Assembly (NCBI GenBank): GCA_963695855.1
Contig: CAVOHZ010000010.1
Location: 1,728,001-1,792,000, forward strand
Source of the DNA: an uncultured Nitrososphaerales archaeon
Lineage (GTDB): Archaea > Thermoproteota > Nitrososphaeria > Nitrososphaerales > Nitrososphaeraceae
Reading direction: 5' to 3'
Length of the DNA: 64,000 bases
The position numbers and the translations under genes are program-made. The notes below the pieces were generated by a model, which did no database searches, was not told the origin of the DNA, and saw only the letters and a program-made list of their open reading frames with translations. Below are positions 27,181 to 64,000 of this stretch, piece after piece (the first letter of the stretch is position 1; every line of letters begins with the position of its first letter).

Positions 27181-27250
27181 GAGGGGATGGGATTCGAACC
27201 CCTATATGTATTCACGGGTTTATATTTTAGTATCGCTAGAGTAATAGATT
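27181..27250 (-). other. tRNA 3'-half fragment plus conserved arm (att-like; candidate left end of element A)
   Basis: reverse complement GGGTTCGAATCCCATCCCCTC; followed on + by CACGGGTTT and TATCGCTAGAG as at 45056. Confidence 0.65.
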
Positions 27251-27334
27251 GTAACTATATAAAAACATGATAGTATACTATAAAAAATAAAAAAAAGAAA
27301 TGATAGATGTTATCCACACTTAAAGATGACTAGA

Positions 27335-28087
27335 CTAGTCTTGAGGTGGTGGGAATACGGTTGGTGGAATAGCATCATCAAATATGTTATTGATACAATT
27401 CACTACAATAGTAAACTGTTCTTCTGAAAAACCTGCATTGGAAAATGCCTGTGCTAATGTAGTACCAAGTTGTTGCAAGGTGTTCTCATCCCCGGCTGCA
27501 AATGCTTCGGAAATTTCTTCACATAGTTGTTCAAATGTTGTTACTTGACCTTGTGTTAAATCACTTATCTCAGTAAGTAGTTCAGTCTGCTCTTCTTCTG
27601 AATCTAGATTTTCGGTGAAGCAGTCTTCACATGGACTGGGTTCTTCTTCTGCTGGTGGTGGAGTAATTTTTACCTGTTCATTGTCATTGACATTTACACA
27701 TATGTTTACAAGATTTCTCTCGAAGTTTATACTATCTCCCCATCCATTACCATTTTGTGTACCTGTTGCGTCTGCTGCTCCTTCATTTGCTGCTGCAGTG
27801 GCAGTATCATCTTGAGGTATTTGGGTAATATCTATACCATTTACATTTATGTTACTATTTACACACTTTATTTTCTGGATATCTGTATGAGAACTCTTTT
27901 TTTGATGGTTATTGTCATAACCGTATCTATTGTCGTCTTGATAATAGTTATTGTCGTATCCATAATCATTGGCGTACATCTGTGCTTGCGCATTTCCTAT
28001 CATGTTTGATGGATTTAGAGCGAATAGACCTGCTGCCACTATCAACGTGATAGAAGCCAGAACTATCTTTTTTGTCTGATGGGTCAT
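27335..28087 (-). CDS. secreted paralogue: constant N-terminus plus CxxC helical domain
   Basis: signal peptide; Tyr/Asn-rich region; IQKIKCVNSNINVNG; NLVNICVNVNDN; CEDCF..LC..C. Confidence 0.85.
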   Translation of the reverse strand: MTHQTKKIVLASITLIVAAGLFALNPSNMIGNAQAQMYANDYGYDNNYYQDDNRYGYDNNHQKKSSHTDIQKIKCVNSNINVNGIDITQIPQDDTATAAANEGAADATGTQNGNGWGDSINFERNLVNICVNVNDNEQVKITPPPAEEEPSPCEDCFTENLDSEEEQTELLTEISDLTQGQVTTFEQLCEEISEAFAAGDENTLQQLGTTLAQAFSNAGFSEEQFTIVVNCINNIFDDAIPPTVFPPPQD

Positions 28088-28222
28088 TGCATTGTTAAAT
28101 GCGAATTTAATATATCTAATGTTGGAAGGAACATTATCTAATGTTATAATATTTCAAGATTCTGAATTATTCACAATAAGAATAATAGCAATTGATCTAC
28201 AAGTACAATATGAGATATTATA
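28088..28222. repeat. conserved upstream repeat R2
   Basis: about 135 bp shared with R3-R7. Confidence 0.9.
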
Positions 28223-28312
28223 ACAATATTATACGTTAAATTATAATAAGTTAATTAATTCAAAATAAATAAAAAATAAATTGAAAGGTGAGATCTCACC
28301 CAAACGTTCTGT

Positions 28313-29392
28313 TTATACTATTGTTGGTGGCGGGATAGCATCGTTAAATACGTCATTTAGACAGTCGAATACAGTGTTAAACTGATCTGTTAATTGTGCT
28401 TGGTTAAATGCGTTTTCTAATAGATTGCTAAGTTGTTGCAACGTGTCCTCATCCCCGGCTGCTACTGCTTCGGAAAATTCTTCACATAGTTGTTCAAATG
28501 TGGTTATTTGACCCGATGTCAGTCCACTTATCGCAGTAAGTAGGCTAGCCTGGTCATCATCATTTAGATTTCGGGTAAAACATTCATCACATGTAACCTC
28601 TTTGATTGTAATTGAATTTGTTGCTGTACAGGTCTGTGTTTGTCCCGCCGCTATTGTTCCCCTTGTTATGAAACCACCGCTGTCTTCATCACAATCTCCT
28701 GTATATGATACAATAAGAGCGGCTTGGCGGGGTGGATCGTTATGATCAGGAGATTGCAACCAAGCAATGATATCGGTGATGTACTGCCCGAAATCTTCTA
28801 TTACTTGATAATCACCCGGATCCAACGTTACGACTGTTCCACTAGTAGAACTGGGAAATTGTTCTGAAGGATTTGGATTGTTACCAGTCACTTGGAAAAG
28901 AAAATCACTTTCATCTATTGTTGTTGATAGTAGGTCTTCACAATCACCTTCAATTTCGTCTGTACAGACAATTTTTTTAGCAACCGTCAAAGTCGTCTCT
29001 GGTGGACTAACTTGCTGTTCGTTGTCATTTACATTTACACATATGTTTACAAGGTTCCTGTCGAAGTTTATTTTATCGAAGTCATTACCATTCTGTGAAT
29101 TTGATGCGTCTGCTGCTTCTATTCCTTCATTTGCTGCTGCAGTAGCAGTAGTGTCTTCAGGTATCTTGGTAATATCTATACCATTGACATTTATGTTACT
29201 GTTTACACAGTTTATTTTCTGGATATCTCCAGGAGAACTCTTTTTCGGATAGTTATTGTCATATCCATATTCATAATTTCCGTACATTTGTCCTTGAGCA
29301 TATCCTATTATTGATGGGTTTAAAGCCAATAGACCTGTCGCTATTATCACCGTGATAGAAGCCAGAACTATCTTTTTTGTCTGATGGGTCAT
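28313..29392 (-). CDS. secreted paralogue: constant N-terminus plus CnaB/prealbumin-like domain plus CxxC helical domain
   Basis: TLTVAK...YQVIE...CTATN followed by CDECF..LC..C. Confidence 0.85.
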   Translation of the reverse strand: MTHQTKKIVLASITVIIATGLLALNPSIIGYAQGQMYGNYEYGYDNNYPKKSSPGDIQKINCVNSNINVNGIDITKIPEDTTATAAANEGIEAADASNSQNGNDFDKINFDRNLVNICVNVNDNEQQVSPPETTLTVAKKIVCTDEIEGDCEDLLSTTIDESDFLFQVTGNNPNPSEQFPSSTSGTVVTLDPGDYQVIEDFGQYITDIIAWLQSPDHNDPPRQAALIVSYTGDCDEDSGGFITRGTIAAGQTQTCTATNSITIKEVTCDECFTRNLNDDDQASLLTAISGLTSGQITTFEQLCEEFSEAVAAGDEDTLQQLSNLLENAFNQAQLTDQFNTVFDCLNDVFNDAIPPPTIV

Positions 29393-33996: not shown

Positions 33997-35089
33997 TTAT
34001 TCACTGGTGACGAATTTAACTCCTTTCAACAGCAAACGAAGTGCGTCCAAGTCATCATTGTGGACACTCACATTTTTGTCAAGGTTCCATTCATTAGCAT
34101 AGGCAGTTTTTAGTGACAGGATTAATCTATCAAATCTGGAAGGTATAGCAAGTTTCTGTTTTGTTAAAAGTTGATATGTATGTTCCAGCATTTGTTTATG
34201 TTCCTTTGCAAAGGATACAGGTATAATAAAGTTGGATTCAGGACTTACGTTCTCAGAACGGTCCCAGTCTAAACTTTCACCGAATTTGGATTTACATTCA
34301 TTAACGGCAGCCCGGTTACTTCAATCCACAAACCACCATAGATTAGGAATTTCAGTATGGAGTTGAAATATACGGTCAGCAATTCTAGAGGGAGTTGTTT
34401 TGTCATATTCCTCTCCTAGGACGATTTTAACTATTTGATTTTCTGTATCGACTTCCCCGATGTATATAGTTGTAATGGATGTAGAGAAGCCGAAATCAAT
34501 TCCACCTTCATGAAGACAGTAGGGATTTATTGTCTGATCCTTCACTACTGTATTTCCTAGGTGGATCGCTTGTTCTATGTCAGAGATAGCAAAAACGTTA
34601 CCTATACGCCCCTGGTACTTGAGACAATACTCACGTTCAAAATATACTTCATTCTTTTCCCTTTCTATAAAATCTGAATCATATATTTTTCCTAAGCCTA
34701 CGGTATAATGGAGAAATATTTTTTTAAACGAATCTTTGAATATCTCATTCTTTTCTATCCTCGAAAACAGATAGTCTGGTCTGTTTGGTGTGCTCGCAAG
34801 AATGATTTTTGCTCTGCTCTTCTCTTCGTATGCCTTGATGACGTATTCTAGTTCGTTCTGTTCTGAGAATCTCTAAATGTAATTCGGGTTTATCTGGGTA
34901 TATCCAAAAAGGAATATCTTCTGTGTCTTCCAGGAATTTAGCAAATTTCTTCGTCGTGGTCCAGGTCTCGGTGAACCATGTTATCGATGGAATCTCCTGC
35001 TGCTGTTGTCCCGTTGTCGGTCTCAGTGCTAGGGGAATCAACGTCCTCTCTGCTAATCTGATATTGAATGGGATAGATTCGTTTGGCAT
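33997..35089 (-). pseudogene. terminase large subunit, internally deleted and with a nonsense codon
   Basis: LASTPN, GGIDFGFSTS and DDLDALR present; Walker A/B region missing at about 34860; GGA>TGA at 34321. Confidence 0.85.
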
Positions 35090-35549
35090 TCTCTTCCTTA
35101 TTCTTATCCTCCTTTTTGTCTATTAAATTTTTTATTGTTGCGATAATGGGTGTGACCATTCCGAGCGATGAAAGTTGTTGATTATTTGCTCTTAGCTCAG
35201 CAACCAATTTTACAATGAAGTTATTATCTTTTTGTAAGTCAGGCTTATTCATTTCAATATGCCATTGCTTCAATGTCTCTTTTTGTATCATTTCCATTTC
35301 CTGAATTCGTTTACGATAGAATTCTACAAAACCATGTCTAGCATAATATGATATCCATTGTATTGTAGTTTCGTCATTTAATACCTCGGATCTAAATTTT
35401 TTGTATGAGCCTTCAGAAAAGTCTAAATTCAATCTTGATTTAACATAATCTATAGTTTCTTGTTTACCAAGACCCATTATGTCAGAATCTAGCATACACT
35501 GCCTGATCAAATGTTTTTGTTCTTTGGTAAAATTTTTCTTTTTGGACAT
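34938..35549 (-). CDS. putative terminase small subunit (HTH plus helical region)
   Basis: position immediately upstream of and overlapping TerL; similar architecture to 58557-59054. Confidence 0.6.
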   Translation of the reverse strand: MSKKKNFTKEQKHLIRQCMLDSDIMGLGKQETIDYVKSRLNLDFSEGSYKKFRSEVLNDETTIQWISYYARHGFVEFYRKRIQEMEMIQKETLKQWHIEMNKPDLQKDNNFIVKLVAELRANNQQLSSLGMVTPIIATIKNLIDKKEDKNKEENAKRIYPIQYQISREDVDSPSTETDNGTTAAGDSIDNMVHRDLDHDEEIC

Positions 35550-35636
35550 AAGTTATGCTCACTTATAGTATTTTTTGGGCTTTTTCAACCAAGTATTTTC
35601 ATTTGTTCTCCAAAAAAAAAACTAACTAAATTAAAA

Positions 35637-35885
35637 TTATTTTCTGTTGGGGTCATCATCATTATATTCTTTTTTAATATTATTATTATTAGATTCATCA
35701 TCATTTTCTTCTTCTTTTGGTTTATTCCAATAAAATATATTTGAAGTACCGCATTTTCTACATTTGTTTGTGGATTTGACATAATCCTTCCAGTTCAAGA
35801 CTTTTCTATCAACTATAGTATGAACCTTATCGGGTTGTGAGATAACAATCTCTGCTTCGAACTTTCTGCAAGAAACTACACTCAT
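35637..35885 (-). CDS. small Zn-ribbon-like hypothetical protein
   Basis: CRKCG motif. Confidence 0.5.
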   Translation of the reverse strand: MSVVSCRKFEAEIVISQPDKVHTIVDRKVLNWKDYVKSTNKCRKCGTSNIFYWNKPKEEENDDESNNNNIKKEYNDDDPNRK

Positions 35886-36037
35886 GATAATAATATAATA
35901 TCGATTTCCTGATTAACTTATCTAAATTCTTCCAACAGAAATAAATGCGGAAAGAAAATTACTGAGAATGTTATGTTATAAGAAAAATAGTTAGTTTAAG
36001 TAAATTTTCTAACTTTCTACTTTCAATGAAACCTTTT

Positions 36038-36304
36038 CTATTGCATCATCATATAATTCGTTGTTCCAATAGCACAAACATCATACTCAGAATATGAAAA
36101 ATCATTTACATGAAATTCTAGTTTCTGTTTTTTCCCATCGACAACATTTATCTCTTGATTTTCATAGTTATTTGCTGATCTTAATGATATAATTATAATA
36201 TCATCAGGTATATCTTGATCAATTTTTACATTCACCTTTATTTCAAACGTAGGTTGTGTTTTCATGTATTCATCCCATTTTTCCTCAGTGGAAAACTCTC
36301 CCAA
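36038..36304 (-). CDS. hypothetical protein (fragment)
   Basis: 88-aa ORF, 5' end probably lost next to the IS. Confidence 0.4.
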   Translation of the reverse strand: MGEFSTEEKWDEYMKTQPTFEIKVNVKIDQDIPDDIIIISLRSANNYENQEINVVDGKKQKLEFHVNDFSYSEYDVCAIGTTNYMMMQ

Positions 36305-36499
36305 TTTGGATTATGAATATATAACTAAAATTAAAGATCATATGTTTCATTCTATCAAATGGCTAAACTAAACACAATTGGATAACTAAGATAATTGATG
36401 ATGCAATTCGAATGTTGACAGTCTATCATCATGTTTTGATGGTAACTTATCTAAAAAAAGAAAAAATTAATTATTGTAAATGGTAAATAGATATTATTA

Positions 36500-37139
36500 T
36501 CAAAAGAAATAGTTTATCATCAACATTATCAACAACAAAGAATGAGTCGTAATGTGACCTGTTTTTATAATTATCATGATGGTAGTGATCGTATTGGTGA
36601 TGATGATGATGCAATATGATCTATAATTATTCTTTCTACTATTGTTGTTATTGTAGTACATATTTTTACTACAACCAGAATATGTCAGTGTCTTTCTAAT
36701 GCTCATTCCGTTGTTTAATATTGTCCTTACCACTGCTAACCTTTCCTCCTTCCTGTTTCTAACGTTTTTTTAAATGCATCTATTGCTATTGTCTGCTCAC
36801 CAATGATCTTCTTTAGTCGCTCAATCTCTATTTCTTTATTCTTCTTGTTTATCATGTTGTCTTTACCGGAGTCTGAAAGTGCCATCTTACCACCTTCTAT
36901 AAATTTCTGTTTCCAGTTGTAGAACACATTTGGATTCAGATTGTACTTTCTGTATAGTTCTGCTACTGTGATATTTGTAGTCAATGATTCCATTACAATC
37001 CTTGTCTTGTCTTCTGGTGTCCACTTTCTAGTACTATTCTCTTTAACACCCTGCATCTGTATGACCTCCTCTATTAACACTATTAGGAGTAAAAAAGTCT
37101 CCATTACAAGGTGTTCTCATTTCAAATGGGTCCAGACCA
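36500..37139 (-). mobile_element. truncated IS3-family element (orfA intact at 36736-37104, orfB remnant)
   Basis: RKWTPEDKTRIV...FYNWKQKF...EIERLKKIIGE; orfB start SIRKTL...SKNMYY; terminus TGGTCTGGACCC at 37139. Confidence 0.8.
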
Positions 37140-37185
37140 AAATTTGGTAAAGTTAATTGATATAAATAACAGTTTTCATTCTAAC

Positions 37186-37779
37186 TCATTGAATAAACTC
37201 AAATGAATTTATTATCTTATCTGCTATTGTTACATATTGATTATACACATCAATATTAGGAGCATAAAATCTTAAATTGTATTCTATACCATCTGTGATT
37301 GTTCCAATGTGGATATATTGCGGATAACTTTCTTCATCTTTATAATCAGAATAAAACCAATTATTGTATACTATTTTATAGGCAGGTTTACCACCCAATG
37401 TAGATGCTTTATCAAAACTCACTAGTTTATTGAAATGAAAGTCTTTTGCTTTAAAATTTTTAATTTCTTGTAATTCTTGTTCTGCATATTGATCAAGTAT
37501 TAAAGTGTTATCGGACGGAAGAAATTCTATACTCATGGAAACAGATGGTCCAAGTAAATTTGAAATAGGTGAAAATTTACCTAGACTTTCGTGAGTATTA
37601 TCAAGGTAGTTAAAACCATCATATTTCCAATTGAAAGGATATTGAATCTTAAAACCATATTTTTCATTCTCATATGTTTGCATTGATTTTTGTGCGAATA
37701 TCGGATTTGAAATAACAACTGACATTGAAGATATCACGATTAGAATAGTTGGTAATAATATTAAGAATATCCTTTTCAA
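37186..37779 (-). CDS. secreted PsbP-like protein
   Basis: signal peptide; YENEKYGFKIQYP.NW; TLGGKPAYKIVY; IINSFEF. Confidence 0.8.
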   Translation of the reverse strand: MKRIFLILLPTILIVISSMSVVISNPIFAQKSMQTYENEKYGFKIQYPFNWKYDGFNYLDNTHESLGKFSPISNLLGPSVSMSIEFLPSDNTLILDQYAEQELQEIKNFKAKDFHFNKLVSFDKASTLGGKPAYKIVYNNWFYSDYKDEESYPQYIHIGTITDGIEYNLRFYAPNIDVYNQYVTIADKIINSFEFIQ

Positions 37780-53143: not shown

Positions 53144-53279
53144 TTATTATTATATCCATTATTCAATATCTTGAAAGGATTGAGACAGTAGAAAATTTTA
53201 TTTAGGACAAAAATGGAAACTAAAAAATAGAAATAAGAATAGTCAAAATCTTTTTTACAGAGGTGACTATCCTTATCTT

Positions 53280-53612
53280 ATGGGTAAGATATTAGAAAGT
53301 TATTTAACACGAAATAAAAAAGCATTGTTAGGTATCTTTTCAGTAGTTATACTAACAATTTTTTTGGCTCCGAAAAGTTATAGTCAAGACTGGTCAAATG
53401 ATGCAAGAAAAGCACAAACATCATTAGTAGACCAGATGAAATATCTATGTATAAAGCTGGATGAACTTTATTCAGAACTTGATCCGGATGAACTTAAAGA
53501 GGAATTGGAGGAAATGGAGGAAAAGGATATAAAACAAAAAGCAGAATGTGATAATATATTGAAATCTGTAGATTCTTTTGAAAAGAAAGCAATACTCAAG
53601 AGATACGAATAG
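53280..53612 (+). CDS. secreted/membrane-anchored hypothetical protein
   Basis: N-terminal TM segment. Confidence 0.6.
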   Translation: MGKILESYLTRNKKALLGIFSVVILTIFLAPKSYSQDWSNDARKAQTSLVDQMKYLCIKLDELYSELDPDELKEELEEMEEKDIKQKAECDNILKSVDSFEKKAILKRYE

Positions 53613-55324: not shown

Positions 55325-56170
55325 GTGTTATTAATGTTACATAATTTTGTTTCATTAGTTGTTGTTGTTGTTGTTGTTGTTGCATCAATCTTTCTAGTTA
55401 TTATAGTAACCTCTAATCATATATCTGCACAACCTATGAGTACCTTACAACAGAATATTAATGCAATCTATGCAGTAAGCATAGTTCCTGGTGCAGCAGA
55501 AAAAAATAATACTTATCATTACTATCCACCATTTATTGCTGTACCTCTGGGAACGACTGTTGCTTGGTTCAACAGCGATTATGGACAGCCGCATACTGTA
55601 ACTAGCGTTGCTATAGGCGATGCTCCTTCTGGTTCTATATTTAACTCTGGTATTATGCCTGCAACTGCTAATTCATTCTTTCAATATACGTTTTCAAAAA
55701 CTGGAGATATTCTATACCACTGTGAAATTCATCCATGGCGACTAGGAAAGGTCTCTACAAATAACGTATATGAAATAGGACATAATTTTCAAATTTCTTA
55801 TGGTGCAGGGGCTTCATGGGATTTAACAAAGTATCCTAGGTCACTTATGATTATCAAACCAACTACTGTTCCCCTAGATAAAAAAACTGCAATTTCCTAT
55901 AATATTACTATCCAGGATAGCGAAGCTAAAACATTATTCTCAAATAACTATAATACAATAGGGGATAGTCTCCCGATAGAATTAATCTCTGGTGGGAATG
56001 AAACGAGTTCATATGGTCCAGATTTTAGTAGTACTGGTGCATATCATGTTCTAGCAGGATTTCTAGAGAACGGTAAAGCCTATAAAATGACATCTGAAAT
56101 TAGTTCTATAAATTACCAAAAACCAGATTCTAGAATAATAGACGAGTTTATTTTTAAAACCGTCTCTTAA
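55325..56170 (+). CDS. secreted plastocyanin/cupredoxin-domain protein
   Basis: GTTVAWFN.D..PHTVTS, FNSG, YHCEIHPW. Confidence 0.88.
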   Translation: MLLMLHNFVSLVVVVVVVVASIFLVIIVTSNHISAQPMSTLQQNINAIYAVSIVPGAAEKNNTYHYYPPFIAVPLGTTVAWFNSDYGQPHTVTSVAIGDAPSGSIFNSGIMPATANSFFQYTFSKTGDILYHCEIHPWRLGKVSTNNVYEIGHNFQISYGAGASWDLTKYPRSLMIIKPTTVPLDKKTAISYNITIQDSEAKTLFSNNYNTIGDSLPIELISGGNETSSYGPDFSSTGAYHVLAGFLENGKAYKMTSEISSINYQKPDSRIIDEFIFKTVS

Positions 56171-56458
56171 TATTTTTATTTTATCTATCTATATCGTTGG
56201 TTATATCATTTCTTCTGCAAAATAATACAATCACGTTAAAATATTTTTAAATGCTTTACATGCTAATTAGTTGAGGCCGGGTCATAATTATTCCATTTTC
56301 ATAACGAATAAAATGATTGATGTAGGGATTACTATGAATGAACCTGTGGAAACGGGCTCTGAAATTTATGCTTGTGTCATTCAATTAGGAAGCAGTAGTT
56401 CTATTGAATGTAATATAGCATATGCAAGTGCTACAGCATCAGGAGAACCACAAAGGGG

Positions 56459-56592
56459 ACCCAGATTCAAAAGACATGAGCAATTCATTAAATATTACAA
56501 TAATAAAAGAGTACATATGTCATTGAACTAGATGACATCAAAACAAGTGTATTCTAGTAGGAGAGGTGTAACACATGTGGTGGGATAGTATA
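56459..56592 (+). mobile_element. right-end remnant of the same IS481
   Basis: matches 5126-5252 including the terminal repeat GTAACACATGTGGTGGGATA. Confidence 0.85.
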
Positions 56593-56626
56593 CCTACATT
56601 TTGCTTAACTTAATAGAACCCTATAT

Positions 56627-56980
56627 TCATAGTGCTAATTCATTTTTCTTACCAGTTCCAATATCATAGGCTTCAAAAACATCATATACAAAAATCTTTC
56701 CGTCTGAGACGGATCCAGTTGTCAATTCAGATAAAAGTTTATCGATAATAGCCATTACCATATCATCATCGACCAGAACTTCTATTTTAGTACGTGTTCC
56801 AAATTTTGGAGTATACTTCATAACTCCTGTTCCTACCGGTATAGGTTTCGATTTAGTTTTTCCTCTTCCATTAACATGATAAAATGACATACCCCCTACC
56901 TCAAACTCTTCTAAAACCGCGTCAGCACGTTCTAATCGCTCATGTGGTATTATGATTTCTATCCTTTTCATAATTTGCAT
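56627..56980 (-). CDS. glnB: P-II family nitrogen regulatory protein
   Basis: MKRIEIII, V.GRGK T-loop, KIEVLV, GSVSDGKIFV. Confidence 0.9.
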   Translation of the reverse strand: MQIMKRIEIIIPHERLERADAVLEEFEVGGMSFYHVNGRGKTKSKPIPVGTGVMKYTPKFGTRTKIEVLVDDDMVMAIIDKLLSELTTGSVSDGKIFVYDVFEAYDIGTGKKNELAL

Positions 56981-57174: not shown

Positions 57175-58621
57175 TTATTCACTGGTGACGAATTTAACTC
57201 CTTTCAACAGCAAACGGAGTGCGTCCAGGTCATCGTTGTGGATACTCACATTTTTGTCAAGGTTCCATTCATTAGCATAGGCAGTCTTTAGTGACAGAAT
57301 TAACTTATCAAATTTGGATGGTATAGCAAGTTTCTGTTTTGTTAAAAGTTGATATGTGTGTTCCAGCATTTGTTTATGTTCTTTTGCAAAGGATACAGGC
57401 ATTATAAAGTTGGATTCAGGACTCACGTTCTCAGAGCGGTCCCAATCTAAACTCTCAGCGAATTTGGATTTACATTCATTAACAGCAGCCCGGTTACTTC
57501 CATCCACAAACCACCATAGATTAGGGATTTCAGTATGAAGTTGAAATATACGATCACCTATTACAGAAGGAGTTGTTTTTGTCATATTGCTCGCCAAGGA
57601 CGATTTTAACTATTTCATTTTCTGTATCTAATTCTGCAATGTATATAGTTGTAATGGATGTAGAGAAGCCAAAATCGATCCCGCCGATATGGAGACAGTA
57701 ATTATTTAATGGTAAATCCTTGTATTTTTCCCCTAGTTGTACAGCCCTCTCTATGTCTTCAATTGCAAAAACGTTCCCAATTTTTCCTAAATATTTTAAA
57801 TCATATTCTTTATCAAATGAAGGACTTTGCTTTGCTCTCTCTATATCTTCCGTACTGTATATCTTGTTTAGGCCATATCTATAATCTAGTTTGATTCTTT
57901 TGTACAGACATATATCTTCCAGTTCCTGTTCTATCGTTTGCATTAATCCCCCAGGTGCGTTAGGTGTTGATACCATTACTATGAAGGGATTTGATTTACC
58001 AATGTATCTCTCTGCTACGGCCCTGACGTCTTCCTGTTCATTCTTGCGAAAGAAATCGCATTCGTCCAGGTAGATAAATTTGGGATTGTCCAGACTTCTA
58101 AAACTGTCAATATGATTTGAAGGATATGCTTCTATCCTACATTTGTTAAGTTCTAATACAGTTTCTTTAGTATCAAAGCTTACGTTATTGAATCTATTCA
58201 TAAACATATTTTTCATACGCTTTACTAACTTGATTGCCAAGTCTATGTTAGGACCTGTAACAATAACAAACTGTGAATCCTGGTAAGTATTATCTCGTAA
58301 TGCAAGATAACACATGTATCTTAGAAATAATTCCGAAATACCAAGTCCCGTACTTTTGAGAATCCATAGACACTTATCATATTCTAATGAATCTAGAACA
58401 ATCTTTTCATAATCAAATAATGGTTTCTCTATTGCGTCCTTAGCAGGTAGGCCTATAATGTGATTGAAACAACAATTACCATTAGTTGCGATATCTTCGT
58501 TTCTGTGTTCTATTACGTCCCATATCCAGAACGGTTTATCCTTGAATATCTGGAACTCAGAATATTGTGTTTGTTGTTGACTGTTCTGTCCTATTAGTCT
58601 CTGTAAATCCTTCCAACCCAT
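57175..58621 (-). pseudogene. terminase large subunit with a single +1 frameshift at about 57578
   Basis: KSTGLGISE, YLDE, VSTPN, GGIDFG, VDGSN, DDLDA; T5 run versus T4 in the paralogue. Confidence 0.85.
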
Positions 58622-59054
58622 TACTATTATTATTTTTACTCTCTTTAGATAATTTGTTTTTTTGTACTTCTACGAATTTAATAGAATCCTGCAGTAATGA
58701 AGCATTAGTTAATAACTCCATTTTAGTTGAATAACATTCTTTAATCAATGCCAACGATTGAAGTTTCTCTTTTGTATCACCCGTCTTATCTGCCTTTGTT
58801 GCAATTATCCACGATTCTTTAATTATTTCTTCCAATCCCTGCAGACATTTGTTATACTCGTATGGTAACCGGTCCTCTATGTGGTTCTTAATTGTCTTTA
58901 TTGATTCGTCTTTCAAATAAGATATATCCCTGCAAACAGCGGACTTGTCTACCTGCAACATTCTGCAGATTTCAGATTGTGAGAATCCCTTAACTGCTAA
59001 CTCCTGTACCTTATTCCTTCTCCATTCCAGTTGTTCCGTTTTTGTATTTGTCAT
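58557..59054 (-). CDS. putative terminase small subunit (HTH)
   Basis: WRRNKVQELAVKGFSQSEICRMLQVDKSAVCRDI; overlaps the TerL start. Confidence 0.7.
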   Translation of the reverse strand: MTNTKTEQLEWRRNKVQELAVKGFSQSEICRMLQVDKSAVCRDISYLKDESIKTIKNHIEDRLPYEYNKCLQGLEEIIKESWIIATKADKTGDTKEKLQSLALIKECYSTKMELLTNASLLQDSIKFVEVQKNKLSKESKNNNSNGLEGFTETNRTEQSTTNTIF

Positions 59055-59208: not shown

Positions 59209-60501
59209 TTACCATTCTAGTTTCTTCCTTTCCTCCATTGATATTCTCTTTTTTGCTGTCTCAAATTTTTCTTTGTTTATCTCTATACCTACGAACTTTC
59301 TATTCAATCTTAATGCAGCCACTCCATTAGTGCCTGATCCCATCATCGGGTCCAATATCGTAAGATTTTCCAAAGTTAAATTTTTGATAATATATTCTGC
59401 TTCTGTTGTAGACTGTTCCCATGGATGTAGGGCCTTATCCATCTGTGGACGTGTGGATTCAATAAAGTCGCCCATTGTACTAGACATTACCGACTCGTTA
59501 GGTCCACCTCCTTTCACATACCATAACATAGGCTTCCATTCTGCAAATATGTGTCTTGCATGCACCTTTGAATGATTTCCAGAATGTTTAACACAAAAAA
59601 TCCACCAGTACTTTAGATTGTCAGTATTATCGCCAATTATCTGTATAACTTTCTCAAGAATTAAATGGCCTGTAAAAAAGACCAGACTACCCCCTGGCTT
59701 GAGTAATCTATCAGCTAACCAGCCTAGAGCTTCATAAATGCCAAGTGCTTCATAACTGTAAGGCGGATCCGTAAGAATTAGGTCTATAGTGTTATCCTGT
59801 ATCTCATTCTTTGCTATTTCCATGAAGTCTCCATGAATTAGCCTATAATTCTGGTTATTGTTATTACTTGATTCACTAATACCGATATTAGACAAAAATT
59901 CCTGTCGCTTCCTATCCTTTCTAATCTTCTCGTATTCTTTATTTATTGTGCTTTTACCTTTCCATAATCTTTTTAATTGTTCTTCCGTTCCGTATTCTCT
60001 AACTTTCTTATAACGTATGTAGGTACTCGGAGAAAGTCCTATTGTTTTAGATATTATTTCAGACGTTTTACCCTTGTCGTTGTCGTTAGTGTCATTTGGC
60101 ACTAACGACGAGATTATTATTTTGTTCTTTACATTTCGTAATTTTGATAACTGTCTTATTCTTGCTTTCTCGCTTTCTATATTCTCAAGTTCAAATCCGA
60201 GTTCTGCTTTTTGTGCTGCGTTTAACTGTCTTCTCTGTAGGTTAATTTCAATAACAAATTTTTTCTCTTCTAACTTGTTATCAGATTTCCTAATCTCATA
60301 TGGTGGTTCGATACCTTCTTCTTTACCTATATCGAATCTGTTATGTCCGTCCAGAATTTCCCTGTTCTCATTTACTATTATAGGACGATAAAATCCATTT
60401 TCCTTTATTGACTTTCTTAATGCTTCCTTTTCTGCAGGTAACAAAGCAGGAACCAGTTTTTCATATTCTGGATTTTTTCTGATTTCTAAATTAATTGTCA
60501 T
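59209..60501 (-). CDS. ParB-like N-terminal domain fused to an N4/N6 DNA methyltransferase
   Basis: SIKENG...ILDGHNR; TDPPY; LDPMMGSG; GIEI. Confidence 0.9.
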   Translation of the reverse strand: MTINLEIRKNPEYEKLVPALLPAEKEALRKSIKENGFYRPIIVNENREILDGHNRFDIGKEEGIEPPYEIRKSDNKLEEKKFVIEINLQRRQLNAAQKAELGFELENIESEKARIRQLSKLRNVKNKIIISSLVPNDTNDNDKGKTSEIISKTIGLSPSTYIRYKKVREYGTEEQLKRLWKGKSTINKEYEKIRKDRKRQEFLSNIGISESSNNNNQNYRLIHGDFMEIAKNEIQDNTIDLILTDPPYSYEALGIYEALGWLADRLLKPGGSLVFFTGHLILEKVIQIIGDNTDNLKYWWIFCVKHSGNHSKVHARHIFAEWKPMLWYVKGGGPNESVMSSTMGDFIESTRPQMDKALHPWEQSTTEAEYIIKNLTLENLTILDPMMGSGTNGVAALRLNRKFVGIEINKEKFETAKKRISMEERKKLEW

Positions 60502-60504
60502 TAT

Positions 60505-61590
60505 CTAAAAAAACTCCTTCATGTTTTGGTTATTGACCAGTATAGAGTACAAATTACTATGATTGGATTTTATCTTCTCCCTGGACATGGGTCCGTACTG
60601 TTTGCTGTGTGCATATTTTATTGCGAGATTGATTCTGTAGGTAAAATTACTATCTAGTTTCCTGATTTTATCGCATTTATCCAACCATTGTTTAATTAAA
60701 TTAAATGATTCTTCAAATGACAAACCTTTTACTTTGACAAGATAACGTGAGAGAATTAGATCCGTTACTAGCTTCCTGCAGTCTTCTATTCCCGTCTCCA
60801 GTAATTTATCGATCCATTCATAATATTTTGAGTCAAAATTATTATTTGGATTTTGTTTACGATTCTGCTGTTCTATACTGCATCTAATTATTAACTGGTC
60901 GATTTCATTCCTTTTCAATTGATTTAGGAATTCTAAAACTAATGATTTGGGTACTCTCTGCCTTTTACCATTCCACTTTTGCAGTATCTTTACTTTGCCG
61001 GTACTTCCATTCTTTGAGTTTATGGTGTTCGGTACTCTCAACAAGCAGGACCTAAACCCTGGAAAATTACCTTTGTCCGCATTGTTATCCGATAGGAAAT
61101 CTTTACAGAATCTCAGAAATTGTTCAGAAGGTTTATCGTAATCGTCAAAATCTGGAACATATTCTAAGGCCTTGGGAAAGTCTAACGGTTGTATCACATG
61201 GTAACCCCTTCCACTCCATAAAACGGTAGGAGTTGCAGTTTTGTCTTTTAGAAATAGCTGAATGTTAGATAGAGTCTTCGATAGTGCAGAATCCAAACCC
61301 ATTCTAGAATAAAAGTTTTCAAGATCTAGATCGATAAACAAAATGTCAGGCTTCCAGGATAAACCAAAATCCAAATAGGAAAAGTAAAAGGAGTTAATTC
61401 TGCAGTCGGTAAACTGAGAACGTTCAAAGAAGTATAATGCTTCTTCTTTTGAATTAACCTGTTTTTGTTTTGTCTTGGGTGTCATTATTGTTCTTGGGAA
61501 TTGTGGACCCGTTAAGTGCGATAATATGAATTCCAACCCTTCTTTTATTTCCGTAGGTGCTGCAGTCATTGTTATCTGGTGGTGAGTCAT
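60505..61590 (-). CDS. archaeo-eukaryotic primase with PriX-like C-terminal domain
   Basis: FIDLD, SGRGYH, LLRVPNTIN; WIDKLL...EDCRK; paralogue of 38447-39601. Confidence 0.85.
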   Translation of the reverse strand: MTHHQITMTAAPTEIKEGLEFILSHLTGPQFPRTIMTPKTKQKQVNSKEEALYFFERSQFTDCRINSFYFSYLDFGLSWKPDILFIDLDLENFYSRMGLDSALSKTLSNIQLFLKDKTATPTVLWSGRGYHVIQPLDFPKALEYVPDFDDYDKPSEQFLRFCKDFLSDNNADKGNFPGFRSCLLRVPNTINSKNGSTGKVKILQKWNGKRQRVPKSLVLEFLNQLKRNEIDQLIIRCSIEQQNRKQNPNNNFDSKYYEWIDKLLETGIEDCRKLVTDLILSRYLVKVKGLSFEESFNLIKQWLDKCDKIRKLDSNFTYRINLAIKYAHSKQYGPMSREKIKSNHSNLYSILVNNQNMKEFF

Positions 61591-61629
61591 CTCCTTCCCC
61601 TTTCCTTTCTCCTGAATCCATCAGCGTCA

Positions 61630-62405
61630 AAATATAGGAAATTATTCTCTTTCAAAAAAGGGAATAATTTTTTATGTTGTTTTTTAGAATTTGTTGAAAT
61701 ATTTTTAATTAGTATATATACACTTGGGGTTTTTGTTGTAAATACTGCAGATTTAGGGGGGTCAAAAATAGTCCCCCAGAGATAGGGTATTTTAGAAAAA
61801 ATATTTTTTTGACTTTCTTGTGCGTTATTGTTAGTCAAGGGTTTCTACACTCCCTTCTTTCTCCCAGTAATTCCCCCTGAACTCTACATGTAATCCAGGT
61901 TCGAATTTTTGAGCTTCAAGTATAAAGTCCTTCGTAGGCCTGATTGGTATTAATGGGTCGTCTTTCCGGTGTACTTTGATTACATGTTCTGTGTGTGTAT
62001 CATCTGTCGAAAATGCCTTGGTACAGAAGTTACACATGTATTGGCCTTCGACGTCTTCGCCTTCTTCTTTGGGTTCTGATTCTTGTTTCTTTTCATCAGC
62101 AGCAGCTGTTTCAGCTGCATCAGCAGTTGTCTGTTCTTCTTTAATTATGTCGTCTTCGTTTCTTTCTTCAAAATAGTTTTCAGGATTGCTGTAATACTGG
62201 TTAACTAGCTGATCTACAGTTATCTCTTCATCTGCATGATTTTTTATTTTTACAAAATACCCTATCTCAGAATACCTATTTAAAATTCTGTTAAATTGGT
62301 TAACTATAAATACTTGATTGGGAAATATTGCAGAATTTACAACAATCTTCTTCATTTCTTGTGAGAAATTATTCCCTTTATCAAAAGAGAACAATTTCCT
62401 ATATT
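61630..62405. repeat. nested three-block inverted repeat (candidate origin)
   Basis: blocks 61630-72, 61733-49 and 61779-93 mirrored by 62365-405, 62329-45 and 62254-68. Confidence 0.65.
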
Positions 62406-63888
62406 CTTTCGTTTCTATGATTGGGTAATAAATATTATTTCGTTTGTCTATCTGACTCTCTAGCTTATCGATATAACCATTGTTGTGAAGTGGGTCAATA
62501 TACGATTTTGAGAGTTTCTTGCCGATTATGGTTTCTCCGTGTACCTGTTTATGTCTCTTTATCAGGTCCGCAGAAGTTACGGCAACCCTTACTTCTTTCA
62601 GTTCTTCGCCCCTACTATTTACTTTTGAATCTGTGACATCACATTTGCTTTGGTATGTTTTCTGAAAGACATCGTAGAACCATTCGAGTACAAAAGGCCT
62701 TACACCGTCGGAATACTCGGTTAACCAGACAGTTCTTTGTAAATCTTCAAATGTTGCAATCGGCCTTATTGATTTTGATAAAACATTATCTTCTTCACCG
62801 TCTTTGTAGACTTCAAGTCTTGGCCTATTCGAAAAATAGATACTGGGTAAGATTCCTAGATATGCATTAATTCTATTAGCTCTTGTCATATCTTCGGCTT
62901 TTACTTTTGGCAATGAACTCTTCAATAGCTCCTTAAACGGAGTTATTACGTTCTTTTTGCCTGGTTTTATGTTCTCATTGATATGTAGTATCTGTTCTTT
63001 CAAACCCTGGATTATGTCCCTTGCAATGTCTTTTTCTTTGTCACTCACTACGTCGGCCTGATAGATTTCATCAGGAACAGAACCCATATCGCAAATATGG
63101 TTCACTGCGTCGTTAAATTTGTCCAGCGACATAGCGGGGTTTGTTGTGATAAACCTTCTTTGAATTTCATTGTATCTTGGCGAATCGCTATAATCTAATG
63201 CCTGTGCAATAATGACAACAGGCCACCCCCTTAACACGTTGGTTTGTGTCGTGATACCGTTATGCGTATCCGTGTATTCGTATTGGATTTCGTATTCGTC
63301 ATGACTCAACAAAGGTAACATTTGAATAATCAATCGTTCCGGCGGGGTATCGAGAAACACCAGGATTTTATTTTCTAAATCTATAAGTTTCTTAGAATTC
63401 TTCAGTAAATCGCGTCTTGCCTTTTCAAGTTCCTTTATTTTACTCTTTAAATCCTGTTTTACTTCTTTATCTTTCTCTAATGATAATTCGCTTTCTTTGT
63501 CGAAAATAGCATCATTCAATGCACTTAATTTCTCTTCTATAGACTCGTGTTGTTCAGTCTCTTCATTCCATACAACAAGCTCGCCTTTTCTATGAAATAA
63601 TGCCTTTTCTGTCATTCCTGAAAGGACTGAAATATCCGATTTTGGAAATACTGCAGCGACCTTGTTTATGACGTAGTTTTTGCCTACTCCACTGGGTGCA
63701 TTGATTAGTAAGTTAATGGGATTCTTGCTGTAGGCCGATAATTTTGTTATTAATAGTTGGTTAGTTAATCTATTCTCTCTTTTTGCTTCTAATAATACTA
63801 TTTTAGTGACGTAATCCAGTTCGTTTAATTGTAGACTTTCAGAAGGCATATTATTGTCTGCGGCGGCAGCGGTGTTCTGCTGTGACAT
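61831..63888 (-). CDS. P-loop ATPase, putative replicative helicase, with C-terminal C2H2 finger
   Basis: APSGVGKN Walker A, LVFLD, QRRF arginine finger; CNFC...HVIKVH. Confidence 0.75.
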   Translation of the reverse strand: MSQQNTAAAADNNMPSESLQLNELDYVTKIVLLEAKRENRLTNQLLITKLSAYSKNPINLLINAPSGVGKNYVINKVAAVFPKSDISVLSGMTEKALFHRKGELVVWNEETEQHESIEEKLSALNDAIFDKESELSLEKDKEVKQDLKSKIKELEKARRDLLKNSKKLIDLENKILVFLDTPPERLIIQMLPLLSHDEYEIQYEYTDTHNGITTQTNVLRGWPVVIIAQALDYSDSPRYNEIQRRFITTNPAMSLDKFNDAVNHICDMGSVPDEIYQADVVSDKEKDIARDIIQGLKEQILHINENIKPGKKNVITPFKELLKSSLPKVKAEDMTRANRINAYLGILPSIYFSNRPRLEVYKDGEEDNVLSKSIRPIATFEDLQRTVWLTEYSDGVRPFVLEWFYDVFQKTYQSKCDVTDSKVNSRGEELKEVRVAVTSADLIKRHKQVHGETIIGKKLSKSYIDPLHNNGYIDKLESQIDKRNNIYYPIIETKEYRKLFSFDKGNNFSQEMKKIVVNSAIFPNQVFIVNQFNRILNRYSEIGYFVKIKNHADEEITVDQLVNQYYSNPENYFEERNEDDIIKEEQTTADAAETAAADEKKQESEPKEEGEDVEGQYMCNFCTKAFSTDDTHTEHVIKVHRKDDPLIPIRPTKDFILEAQKFEPGLHVEFRGNYWEKEGSVETLD

Positions 63889-64000
63889 AGCTAGACAGCA
63901 TTACACCTTCCCGTAGGTAATGTAATGAGTGTACAAACTGGACGGGAAGGGATAGAAGCAAAAACCCTGAAATTGCGGTATTTTCTTCCATTTTTCATGG

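What the first reader, a model, noticed from the sequence alone, without database searches (positions are those of the whole stretch)
27181..64000. Family of capsid-less, terminase-carrying integrative elements in tandem (archaeal satellite-like)
Seen: two adjacent elements with the same - strand order of P-loop ATPase, AEP/PriX primase, TerS, TerL, cargo, secreted paralogue array and att. Element A also has the integrase, CopG and a divergent wHTH gene. No portal, capsid or protease follows TerL in either element. Known: integrase plus primase/helicase plus terminase without virion genes is the layout of bacterial PICI-type satellites. Inference: an undescribed archaeal satellite or self-packaging island family that spreads surface-protein arrays. 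Caveat: both TerL copies are damaged, so decayed proviruses remain possible.
Basis: partly seen in the sequence, partly recalled or inferred. Interest (0 to 1): 0.85.

Follow-up and report, generated by a model that had tools for sequence, protein, structure and literature searches.

The report
Capsid-less archaeal elements carrying terminase
Two neighbouring mobile elements in an ammonia-oxidising archaeon belong to a widespread family that keeps a virus DNA-packaging enzyme but no virus shell genes, so the family probably borrows the shells of other viruses, although both copies here have a broken packaging gene and no experiment shows packaging.

Summary
The layout is real. Two adjacent minus-strand elements carry P-loop ATPase, PriX primase, TerS-like gene, TerL, cargo and secreted paralogues. 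Corrections: element B has its own integrase, just past the window end. The shared att is a 23-bp tRNA-like repeat at 45056 and 66998, with a near copy at 6381; 27181 is a different tRNA-Val-like fragment. The ATPase, TerS and "wHTH" genes of A and B are not detectably homologous, and "CopG" and "wHTH" have no support. Both TerL genes are dead: B by one extra A, A by truncation plus two stops.

The family is alive elsewhere. This genome has 12 TerL loci, 4 intact, with conserved catalytic motifs, a terminase fold and dN/dS of 0.08-0.17. TerL occurs in 22 of 36 other genomes of the same family. No portal or capsid gene was found in any element or anywhere in this genome. In viral contigs, 41 of 45 related TerL genes sit next to a portal-family gene.

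Best reading: satellite-like integrative elements derived from head-tailed viruses that use their own terminase (about 0.5). Excision, packaging and a helper are not shown. One precedent exists, NitKor-E1 (2019), then read as a relic. This scan already noted a sister copy in this genome and similar elements in other archaea.

The parts
6381..6403 (+). att-like core copy, 1 mismatch to the 23-bp repeat; possible outer end of the integration array
   Evidence: 2 matches in the window at up to 3 mismatches, 0 expected in 100 shuffles; alignment
21234..21300 (+). Degenerate att-like site, 82% identical over 67 bp to the site beside the B integrase; candidate left end of element A
27181..27203 (+). 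tRNA-Val(TAC)-like 3' fragment.
   Evidence: 21 nt identical to the 3' end of the tRNA-Val next to the T9 integrase
27335..29392 (-). Two secreted paralogues (family F02; ORFs 27335-28087 and 28313-29392) with N-terminal signal or TM segment
32180..33802 (+). 540-aa acidic, repeat-rich cargo protein, unique in the genome
33982..34875 (-). TerL remnant of element A: residues about 192-482 only, with 1 TGA and 1 TAG; 91% nucleotide identity to B over 541 bp
34938..35549 (-). TerS-position gene of A (family F06, 203 aa); no family hit; homologues sit upstream of TerL in viral contigs
35580..37200 (-). IS-like insertion with transposase HTH ORF 36736-37104; partial copies elsewhere in the genome
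38447..39601 (-). Primase of A with C-terminal PriX domain
   Evidence: PF18689, E 3.6e-9; 47% identical to the B primase
39611..41695 (-). P-loop ATPase of A (family F14, 694 aa; GGNGSGKS visible); no family hit
42183..43346 (+).
43459..45048 (-). Tyrosine integrase of A (529 aa, intact ORF)
45056..45078 (+). 23-bp att core, exact repeat of 66998-67020 beside the B integrase; resembles a tRNA T-arm plus acceptor 3' strand read on the minus strand
46744..51518 (-). Array of four F02 secreted paralogues plus one F49 secreted protein (49831-50622); F49 is 96.6% identical to the gene directly after the intact TerL of T5
52332..53612 (+). Small conserved element genes: F12 repeat protein, DUF7557/RHH-like F03, F24
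55325..56980 (.). Cargo: cupredoxin-like gene 55325-56170 (+) and P-II gene 56627-56980 (-)
57175..58621 (-). TerL of element B, split into two ORFs by one extra A in the run at 57576-57580
   Evidence: (metagenome contigs one base shorter there)
58557..59054 (-). TerS-position gene of B (family F19, 165 aa, N-terminal HTH-like)
59209..60501 (-). ParB-like domain fused to N6/N4 DNA methyltransferase
60505..61590 (-). Primase of B with PriX domain
   Evidence: PF18689, E 2.5e-14; PriL-PriX fusion 5ofn_B, E 1e-8
61831..63888 (-). P-loop ATPase of B (685 aa; APSGVGKN visible; C-terminal C2H2-like motif); unrelated by BLASTP to the A ATPase

Best explanation
The window holds a tandem array of integrative elements at a recurrent tRNA-like att site. 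Elements A and B belong to a family that is widespread in this family of ammonia-oxidising archaea. The family combines a tyrosine integrase, its own replication genes (PriX-domain primase plus a large P-loop ATPase or a D5-type helicase), a TerS-like gene and a complete large terminase. Variable cargo includes secreted paralogues, P-II and cupredoxins. There are no head or tail genes.

The terminase module comes from head-tailed viruses of the same hosts. In those viruses TerL is followed by portal-size, MuF-like and capsid genes. Compact elements keep the two genes that flank this head block (F20 and F21) but lack the block itself.

Most likely mechanism, inferred and not shown: the element excises and replicates with its own primase and ATPase. 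Its TerS recognises element DNA, and its TerL cuts and pumps that DNA into procapsids supplied by a co-infecting helper virus. That is a satellite life style with a self-encoded terminase holoenzyme.

The two window copies can no longer do this themselves. B has a 1-nt frameshift in TerL and A has a truncated TerL plus an IS insertion. Both integrase ORFs are intact.
For: TerL identity
- phrog_2, E 3e-19 to 7.5e-24.
- Model of the intact paralogue T5: pLDDT 90.8. All listed Foldseek PDB hits are viral DNA-packaging motors, nearly all large terminases, over both domains: T4 gp17 3cpe E 7.1e-17, HK97 TerL 6z6d E 2.1e-13, D6E, Sf6.
- The Walker B DE, the STP motif and nuclease Asp317 and Asp374 are invariant in 42 sequences; Asp464 and Asp467 are kept in at least 90%.

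Selection
- dN/dS is 0.17 for T5-T9, 0.08 for T5-B (N part) and 0.13 for T9-B (N part). In more distant pairs pN is far below a saturated pS.

Recurrence without virion genes
- 12 TerL loci in this genome, 4 with full ORFs.
- No capsid, portal, protease or tail family among 43 + 133/141 + 129 ORFs of own and related elements.
- Compact copies such as T8 (about 11-12 kb) have no portal-size ORF.
- T9 is bounded by 36-bp direct repeats at tRNA-Val and spans 25.2 kb.
- The 99.87%-complete genome gives no hit to PF05065, PF04860, PF05133 or PF04233. Of 23 proteins encoded near TerL in related viral contigs, only the F20 homologue hits it by tblastn.

Contrast with viruses
- A portal-family gene lies within 4.5 kb of TerL in 41 of 45 assessable IMG/VR loci, against 3 of 18 assessable soil metagenome loci and 0 of 12 own loci.
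- Virus-type contigs carry portal, protease and capsid hits (L055), MuF-like hits (L041) and PF25209 capsid (L124).

Tree and distribution
- Element and virus TerLs interleave: (T7, G012_C20) is sister to viral L041/L044 with SH-aLRT 99.
- Distribution: 22 of 36 other genomes of the same family, 1 of 24 in other families of the order.

Tandem integration
- The 23-bp core lies beside both integrases.
Against: - No excision, circular form, packaging or helper is shown. Laying contigs of 4 soil runs gave no excision joint.
- Both window copies and 7 of the 12 genomic TerL loci are broken; a further locus (T2) is an in-frame fusion, not a standard TerL. This is what decaying proviruses also look like.
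- The compact elements look like viruses with the head block deleted. That fits decay as well as satellite origin.
- Virion genes may escape detection. PHROGs gave no portal or capsid hit even for a probable head-tailed provirus of a related genome (G027_C18), and Pfam gave only a sub-threshold portal hit there (E 0.0078).
- The TerS assignments rest on position, size and weak HTH hits only.
- No att repeats were found for the F05-integrase elements T5, T7 and T8.
- No resident helper is detectable in this genome.
- The purifying selection may partly date from a viral past.
Confidence: 0.5

Rival explanations
1. Decayed proviruses. Each locus is the remnant of a head-tailed provirus that lost its morphogenetic genes by deletion. 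The terminase genes are leftovers on their way to loss and have no function in the element.
For: - Both window TerL genes are broken, and 7 of the 12 TerL loci in the genome are fragmentary or broken, with one more an in-frame fusion.
- The closest viral contigs share TerS-TerL-F20 and F21 with the compact elements, which look like the virus minus the head block.
- Krupovic et al. 2019 read NitKor-E1 this way.
- The window region is a graveyard of fragments: a TerS fragment at 25850, F52 and F02 fragments at 17181 and 19028, and a third TerL/TerS remnant at 76000-77520.
Against: - Four copies keep full TerL ORFs, and dN/dS is 0.08-0.17 between copies that all sit in capsid-less contexts.
- The same capsid-less architecture (TerS-TerL-F20-F21-integrase) recurs in another species of the genus at 66% TerL identity (G012_C20).
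- Large TerL clades hold rows only from capsid-less or unresolved contexts, none from a portal-linked context.
- The elements have their own primase/ATPase module and integrase, and T9 has precise 36-bp repeats.
- 12 of 18 assessable metagenome relatives lack a portal-size gene after TerL.
- Random decay should not spare TerS-TerL so consistently.
Confidence: 0.22
2. Exapted terminase. The elements are plasmid-like or integrative elements that use TerS/TerL for a job other than hitch-hiking. One possibility is cutting and resolving their own replication concatemers. Another is anti-virus interference, in which the terminase competes with or cuts the DNA of incoming related viruses and so protects the host.
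For: - TerL is conserved and under selection without any capsid partner in the genome.
- The elements carry other defence-like or exclusion-like cargo: a ParB-methyltransferase, an SNF2 helicase-methyltransferase, an HNH-HTH gene and secreted surface proteins.
- Close kinship of element and virus TerLs is what a decoy or competitor would need.
Against: - Per passages of PMC6563490, the terminase complex was known only from tailed viruses and herpesviruses and had not been seen in non-viral elements.
- A matching TerS-like gene and the virus-derived F20 are kept next to TerL, which points to the canonical packaging role.
- Interference and hitch-hiking are not exclusive; bacterial satellites do both (recalled).
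Confidence: 0.18
3. Complete but unrecognised viruses. The elements encode a novel capsid or vesicle system among their unknown or secreted proteins (F02, F49, F21, F12), so they are self-sufficient.
For: - Many ORFs have no family.
- F21 has a confident model (pLDDT 88.2) with no match in the PDB or BFVD.
- F02 and F49 are consistently linked to the elements.
- PHROGs and Pfam are weak on viruses of these archaea.
Against: - TerL motors are known only with portal-containing HK97-type capsids (textbook knowledge). No portal-size ORF exists in compact copies.
- F02 and F49 have signal or TM segments, which is untypical of head proteins.
- F21 also occurs in virus contigs that have their own capsid gene (L124).
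Confidence: 0.08

Closest known systems
NitKor-E1, a cryptic integrated element of Ca. Nitrosopumilus koreensis AR1 (Krupovic et al. 2019, PMC6563490; passages read)
   Same: It is an integrated element with a tyrosine integrase. TerS lies directly upstream of TerL and these are its only virus-like genes. No capsid, portal or tail genes were found.
   Different: NitKor-E1 was a single case, read as a likely relic, in a marine genus; that study did not cover this genus (0 mentions of Nitrosocosmicus). Here the pattern is a multi-copy family with 12 loci in one genome and presence in 22 of 36 related genomes. It has its own PriX primase/ATPase module, evidence of selection on TerL, tandem integration and secreted-protein cargo. 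Sequence relatedness to NitKor-E1 was not tested.
Phage-inducible chromosomal islands and other bacterial phage satellites (SaPI/PICI, cf-PICI, PICMI, P4, PLE)
   Same: Both combine an integrase, their own replication initiator or primase-helicase, packaging-specificity genes and cargo. Both integrate at tRNA-like att sites, sometimes in tandem, and lack most virion genes.
   Different: As I recall, not tested here, classical PICIs carry TerS or redirect the helper terminase but have no TerL, and cf-PICIs carry TerL together with their own capsid and portal. A complete TerS+TerL pair with no head gene is a different combination. The host domain and all proteins are archaeal or archaeal-virus types (PriX primase). 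Helper induction is unknown.
Head-tailed viruses of Nitrososphaeria in IMG/VR and soil metagenomes (e.g. loci L041, L044, L124, L055)
   Same: TerL is 35-48% identical (own T7 to L041: 49%). TerS-position genes of family F06, the zinc-ribbon gene F20 right after TerL, F21 and a ParB-methyltransferase are shared.
   Different: The viruses have a portal-size gene, a MuF-like minor head protein, a protease and a major capsid protein next to TerL. The elements have none of these; they have an integrase and primase/ATPase modules instead.
Archaeal satellites described so far: pSSVx/pSSVi, haloarchaeal SRCEs, and the putative Asgard NMV2S (bioRxiv 10.1101/2025.02.15.638363 and 10.64898/2026.08.12.739948; passages read)
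   Same: These are mobile elements proposed to be spread in capsids of a helper archaeal virus. They have plasmid-like replication genes and an incomplete morphogenetic module.
   Different: pSSVx/pSSVi and the SRCEs are tied to spindle-shaped viruses and are not described with a terminase in the passages read. NMV2S is linked to a head-tailed virus but has no terminase in the passages read. None is an integrative TerS+TerL element.

Membership tests
Large terminase subunit (TerL) of Caudoviricetes | N-terminal ASCE ATPase plus C-terminal RNase H-like nuclease fold | tested here: met
   The model of the intact paralogue T5 (91% identical to B) has pLDDT 90.8. All listed Foldseek PDB hits are viral packaging motors, nearly all large terminases, over about 480 columns: 3cpe E 7.1e-17, 6z6d E 2.1e-13. 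phrog_2 gives E 7.5e-24.
Large terminase subunit (TerL) of Caudoviricetes | Conserved catalytic motifs (Walker B Asp-Glu, coupling S/T-T-P motif, nuclease acidic residues) | tested here: met
   D187, E188, S219-T220-P221, D317 and D374 are invariant in 42 sequences; D464 and D467 are kept in at least 90%. The motif names are recalled.
Large terminase subunit (TerL) of Caudoviricetes | Intact reading frame in the two window copies | tested here: not met
   B has a +1-nt A-run frameshift at 57576-57580. A holds only residues about 192-482, with 2 stops.
Small terminase subunit (TerS) | Recognisable TerS family or fold: N-terminal HTH plus oligomerisation core | tested here: inconclusive
   There is no Pfam or PHROG TerS family hit. 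There are only weak HTH and unknown-function PHROG hits. The assignment rests on the position directly upstream of and overlapping TerL, on size, and on F06 homologues in the same position in viral contigs. The fold was not predicted.
Head-tailed provirus (Caudoviricetes) | HK97-fold major capsid protein and portal protein encoded with TerL | tested here: inconclusive
   No hit in Pfam or PHROGs for any ORF of A, B, T5, T7, T8, T9 or related loci. PF05065, PF04860, PF05133 and PF04233 give nothing genome-wide. There is no tblastn hit for the portal-size and capsid proteins of related viruses. Compact copies have no portal-size ORF. These libraries are weakly sensitive for viruses of these archaea. 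Only F21 was folded, and no HK97 match was found.
Phage/virus satellite (PICI-like) | Integrase, own replication module and packaging gene(s), without a complete virion module | tested here: met
   Integrases (PF00589/phrog_1), PriX primases, P-loop ATPases and TerS-position plus TerL genes are present; no virion gene was found.
Phage/virus satellite (PICI-like) | Helper-dependent excision, replication and packaging into helper capsids | not testable with these tools
   Only assembled contigs of soil runs were available and they showed no excision joint. No helper is identified in this genome.
Tyrosine-recombinase integrative element at a tRNA-type att | Integrase next to att, with direct repeats at both ends | tested here: met
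   For B, an exact 23-bp repeat lies at 45056 and 66998, and the integrase ends at 66934. For sister element T9, 36-bp repeats flank it and tRNA-Val(TAC) lies beside the integrase. A's left repeat is not resolved. No complete tRNA was detected at the A/B att by ARAGORN or Rfam.
PriX-domain primase (archaeo-eukaryotic primase type) | PriX domain; AEP catalytic domain | tested here: inconclusive
   The PriX domain is met: PF18689, E 3.6e-9 and 2.5e-14, and PDB PriL-PriX, E 1e-8. The N-terminal AEP domain has no tool hit. Only DxD, SGxGYH and R-[IV]-P-[GN]-[ST]-x-N-like motifs are seen by eye, and those motif definitions are recalled.
NitKor-E1-type cryptic integrated element | TerS plus TerL as the only virus-like genes in an integrase-bearing element | tested here: met
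   compared with the description in PMC6563490. Homology to NitKor-E1 proteins themselves was not tested.

The most novel reading that the evidence does not exclude
These are the first satellites of head-tailed archaeal viruses. They form a family that spans this family of ammonia-oxidising archaea and carries a complete terminase holoenzyme (TerS+TerL, with the virus-derived accessory genes F20 and F21) but no shell genes. The family takes over helper procapsids with its own motor. In doing so it moves secreted surface-protein arrays, P-II and copper proteins between soil ammonia oxidisers.
Probability: 0.4. Interest if true: 0.85.

Novelty: new variant of a known kind. Interest (0 to 1): 0.62.

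Why it matters
Virus satellites shape phage-host dynamics and gene flow in bacteria. For head-tailed archaeal viruses, the passages read describe only one putative satellite, which has no terminase. A single terminase-only element in a marine ammonia oxidiser was set aside as a relic in 2019.

This work shows that the pattern is a conserved, multi-copy family under selection in soil ammonia oxidisers. The family has clear viral relatives that do carry head genes. The satellite idea therefore becomes directly testable in cultivable nitrifiers, and intact copies can be named for that test: T5 at C10:1291710-1306193 and T9 at C10:1677952-1703156.

It would also be a new satellite strategy: bring the whole packaging motor and borrow only the shell. 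The elements may be a route by which surface proteins, P-II and cupredoxin genes spread among organisms that drive soil nitrification.

Tried and rejected
1. Conserved programmed frameshift or split TerL. tblastn gave separate N and C matches at every copy, but the junctions show the other copies are in frame. B alone has one extra A. Rejected.
2. Complete tRNA at the A/B att. ARAGORN on the window and L001, ARAGORN with introns on the whole genome, and Rfam at gathering and E-value thresholds found no tRNA there. The fold is not convincing. Only T9's tRNA-Val was found.
3. Direct repeats for the F05-integrase elements T5, T7 and T8: only chance-level 12-14-mers.
4. F21 as a hidden capsid protein. 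No match in Foldseek PDB (best E 0.12), VIA-align wide (best Z 2.5), BFVD (best E 0.026), PDB by sequence or the ESM Atlas (no usable hit).
5. TerL profile against PDB sequences: no hit at E up to 0.01; the fold search was needed.
6. The ATPases of A and B against the PDB: nothing meaningful.
7. V33 (the portal-size gene of soil viral contigs) as a portal. hhalign against the marine portal family gave E 0.02 but probability 2.3%, with no PDB or Pfam hit. Its portal role is inferred from position and size only.
8. A single-protein TerL scan of IMG/VR found nothing; the alignment query did.
9. Sequencing runs. No RNA holder is listed, and the best DNA holder has 0.45 of the words. Laying 4 runs of contigs showed no excision or empty-site joint. 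Joints inside the F02 array and loose ends at 45056-45100 trace to paralogous repeats and a paralogous att locus on contig C8.
10. No circular (terminal-repeat) contig was seen among the metagenome loci printed, those of at least 4.5 kb.
11. Literature. Searches for 'Thaumarchaeota + integrated mobile genetic elements + terminase', 'Nitrosocosmicus + terminase', 'archaea/satellite/large terminase/capsid-less' and 'NitKor-E1' found no description of this family beyond NitKor-E1. The supplements of PMC6563490 were not read and may list further cases.

Full report
**Where and what**

The window is G000:C10:1728001-1792000, in a 3.55-Mb, 31% G+C genome of 11 contigs. The genome is 99.87% complete and encodes archaeal AmoA. 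I scanned 43 ORFs in 27335-63888 with Pfam and PHROGs.

**The observation: element B**

All genes listed are on the minus strand unless marked.
- P-loop ATPase, 61831-63888.
- PriX-domain primase, 60505-61590 (PF18689, E 2.5e-14).
- ParB-methyltransferase, 59209-60501.
- A 165-aa gene in the TerS position, 58557-59054.
- TerL in two ORFs, 57554-58621 and 57175-57597 (phrog_2, E 3e-19).
- P-II at 56627-56980 and a cupredoxin-like gene on the plus strand.
- Small conserved genes, then five secreted proteins at 46744-51518.

**The observation: element A**

All genes listed are on the minus strand unless marked.
- Integrase, 43459-45048.
- A 387-aa plus-strand gene, then a 107-aa gene.
- P-loop ATPase, 39611-41695.
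- PriX primase, 38447-39601.
- An IS-like insertion.
- A 203-aa TerS-position gene, 34938-35549.
- A TerL remnant.
- A 540-aa plus-strand repeat protein.
- Two secreted paralogues.

None of the 43 ORFs hit a capsid, portal, protease or tail family.

- Past the window end, B has its own integrase (window-equivalent 65474-66934) and a plus-strand 311-aa gene. After these come cupredoxin, Usp and transporter genes, not virion genes.
- An exact 23-bp repeat lies beside both integrase starts, at 45056-45078 and 66998-67020. A one-mismatch copy lies at 6381-6403 (none expected by chance) and a degenerate copy at 21234.
- B is therefore a 21.9-kb unit bounded by repeats.
- The site at 27181 is a different sequence. 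It matches the 3' end of tRNA-Val(TAC), which is the att of the sister element T9.
- The repeat looks like a tRNA T-arm plus acceptor strand, but no complete tRNA was detected there.
- A and B share gene order but not gene families at three positions. BLASTP E is 1.3 for the ATPases, 0.59 for the TerS-position genes and 8 for the plus-strand genes. The primases are 47% and the integrases 56% identical.
- The 'CopG' and 'wHTH' labels have no support from any tool.

**The TerL damage is real**

- B carries one extra A in the run at 57576-57580 compared with in-frame paralogues.
- Soil metagenome contigs laid on B are one base shorter there: 3 of 3 contigs in run X5, and one contig in X1 (depth 4.4 of 6.82). 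These contigs may come from paralogues.
- A retains only residues about 192-482, with two stops.
- I first suspected a conserved frameshift or split gene. I rejected that idea after reading the junctions.

**The family in this genome**

- tblastn and ORF searches give 12 TerL loci on contig C10.
- Four have full ORFs: T5 (482 aa), T8 (479), T7 (474) and T9 (443).
- One locus (T2) is an in-frame fusion of the TerL ATPase part to a B-type ATPase.
- The other seven, including A and B, are broken.
- Neighbourhood clustering shows a recurring order: [ATPase]-[PriX primase]-TerS-TerL. It is combined with either of two integrase families and with small genes: an RHH/DUF7557 gene, a SWIM zinc finger and the F12 repeat protein.
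- T8 is only about 11-12 kb. Apart from the ATPase (split into 294- and 356-aa ORFs), primase, TerL and integrase, it has no ORF above 224 aa.
- T9 is bounded by 36-bp direct repeats at tRNA-Val and spans 25.2 kb.
- T5 is 91% identical to B in TerL. It has every core gene intact, and TerL is followed directly by the same secreted genes (F49, F02) that form B's array.
- Pfam and PHROG scans of 133-141 ORFs from T5, T7, T8, T9 and T2 gave no virion family.

**Is it really a working terminase?**

- The T5 model has pLDDT 90.8. All listed Foldseek hits in the PDB are viral DNA-packaging motors, nearly all large terminases, and cover both domains: T4 gp17 E 7.1e-17, HK97 E 2.1e-13, D6E, Sf6.
- In 42 aligned sequences the Walker B Asp-Glu, the S-T-P motif and two nuclease aspartates are invariant. 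Two further aspartates are kept in at least 90%.
- Nei-Gojobori estimates give dN/dS of 0.17 (T5-T9), 0.08 (T5 against the N part of B) and 0.13 (T9 against the N part of B). Other pairs have saturated synonymous sites, with pN far below pS.

**Distribution**

- TerL relatives occur in 22 of 36 other genomes of the same family. Among the 24 genomes of other families in the order, 1 has a match.
- Several genomes are multi-copy: G012 and G036 have 13 matches each.
- In another species of the genus, G012_C20 shows F02-TerS-TerL-F20-F21-integrase, the same layout as T7 and T8.

**Relation to viruses**

- An alignment query found 59 IMG/VR loci.
- Of the 45 with at least 3 kb downstream of TerL, 41 have a member of two portal-position families within 4.5 kb. 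Three have none, and one has another large ORF.
- Marine contig L055 gives portal, protease and major-head hits.
- Soil contigs with 34% G+C (L041, L044, L124) run TerS-TerL-F20-(506-543-aa gene)-MuF-like minor head protein-...-capsid (PF25209, 27.4 bits, cut-off 27)-F21.
- The portal role of the 506-543-aa gene is inferred from position and size only.
- The compact elements therefore keep the two genes that flank the viral head block and lack the block itself.
- Among the best 80 of 348 soil metagenome relatives, 18 were assessable. Three have the portal-position gene, three have another large same-strand ORF and 12 have none.
- In a 57-sequence TerL tree, element and virus contexts interleave. 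(T7, G012_C20) is sister to viral L041/L044 (SH-aLRT 99). Several larger clades contain rows only from capsid-less or unresolved contexts.
- That tree used the quick method and has some long branches. No clade test was run.

**No helper or hidden shell found**

- The genome gives no hit to four capsid, portal and MuF Pfam families.
- Of 23 proteins encoded near TerL in related viral contigs, only the F20 homologue hits it by tblastn.
- F21 folds confidently (pLDDT 88.2) but matches nothing in the PDB or BFVD.
- Caveat: these libraries are weak for viruses of these archaea. In a probable head-tailed provirus of a related genome, PHROGs gave no portal or capsid hit and Pfam gave only a sub-threshold portal hit, E 0.0078.

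**Cargo**

- The secreted family F02 has 28 loci genome-wide. Sixteen lie within 15 kb of a TerL locus, a zone that covers 9% of the genome (binomial P about 2e-10). Tandem copies are not independent, so a fairer count is 8 of 12 TerL loci with at least one copy.
- This supports a link between the elements and the surface-protein arrays. It says nothing about their function.

**Mechanism**

- Shown: gene content, recurrence, att repeats, TerL fold, conserved motifs, purifying selection and kinship to virus terminases.
- Inferred: the elements excise and replicate with their own primase and ATPase, then use their own TerS and TerL to load their DNA into procapsids of a related helper virus.
- Not shown: excision, packaging and any helper.
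- Public runs offered only assembled contigs and no RNA holder. They gave no excision joint.
- The rivals stay open: plain provirus decay, a terminase exapted for replication or virus interference, and unrecognised shell genes.

**What is known**

- Krupovic et al. 2019 (PMC6563490; passages read) described NitKor-E1, with TerS+TerL as its only virus genes. They noted that terminases were unknown outside viruses and called it a likely relic. That study does not mention this genus.
- A 2025 preprint states that only pSSVx and pSSVi had been described as archaeal satellites before its own spindle-virus-linked SRCEs.
- A 2026 preprint proposes a terminase-less Asgard satellite.
- Four literature searches found no description of this family. 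Supplements were not read.
- This scan already noted the sister copy T8 in this genome and similar terminase-only elements in other archaea. Those are unchecked AI notes, except that I re-examined T8 here.

**Verdict**

The capsid-less terminase family is real, conserved and derived from viruses. The satellite mechanism is the best but unproven reading, at about 0.5.
- The two window copies are decayed members.
- Novelty: a new variant of a known kind.
- Interest: 0.62.

Noticed in passing
L006:9656-10330 (G000:C10:1528656-1529330), family F21: A conserved 224-aa protein, found next to TerL-F20 in compact elements and just after the capsid gene in viral contig L124. It gives a confident model (pLDDT 88.2) with no match in the PDB or BFVD, so it may be a new fold tied to head completion or packaging.
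   Followed up: partly
G000:C10:478547-481033 (L009:13547-16033, minus strand): An 828-aa ORF that fuses the TerL ATPase part (residues 1-348, 67% identical to B) in frame to the C-terminal part of a B-type P-loop ATPase. It is probably a deletion product.
   Followed up: no
window 52561-52735: An exact 88-bp tandem duplication inside the F12 gene. Copies of this gene elsewhere have two to three repeats of the same 29-residue unit.
   Followed up: no
window 54098-54248: A 73-bp tandem repeat (97% identical) in an intergenic stretch of element B.
   Followed up: no
L004:17504-18928 (T7 TerL) versus L006:6844-8283 (T8 TerL): The T7 TerL is mosaic. Its N-terminal half is closest to that of another species (G012_C20), while its C-terminal half is almost identical to T8. 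This points to recombination between element copies.
   Followed up: partly
window 76000-77656 equivalent (L001:12000-15656, contig end): A third TerL/TerS remnant lies at the contig end; its TerS region is 91% identical to A's. A 301-bp copy of B's left-end sequence lies at 72641-72940. The start of contig C2 has an integrase 90% identical to A's, beside the same 23-bp core.
   Followed up: partly
window 17181-17450, 19028-19201, 25850-25930: Fragments of element genes (F52-like ORF, F02 fragment, TerS upstream region) lie left of the reported start. The whole stretch from about 6381 to the contig end looks like an integration hotspot full of remnants.
   Followed up: partly
L179:276-1355 (G000:C10:1693276-1694355, inside T9): A 359-aa HNH endonuclease with a C-terminal HTH, encoded about 5 kb from TerL in the repeat-bounded element T9. 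As I recall, HNH proteins assist cos-type terminases in some phages.
   Followed up: no
window 4679-5802: An rve-type transposase fragment followed by an RTX-repeat protein. Similar RTX-repeat genes flank element T5.
   Followed up: no
L033:7243-17799 (G027:C18): A related genome holds a probable complete head-tailed provirus: a distant TerL (25% identical) followed by same-strand 550-, 310-, 263-, 466- and 396-aa genes. PHROGs gave no structural hit and Pfam only a sub-threshold portal hit, which shows how weak the libraries are for these viruses.
   Followed up: partly
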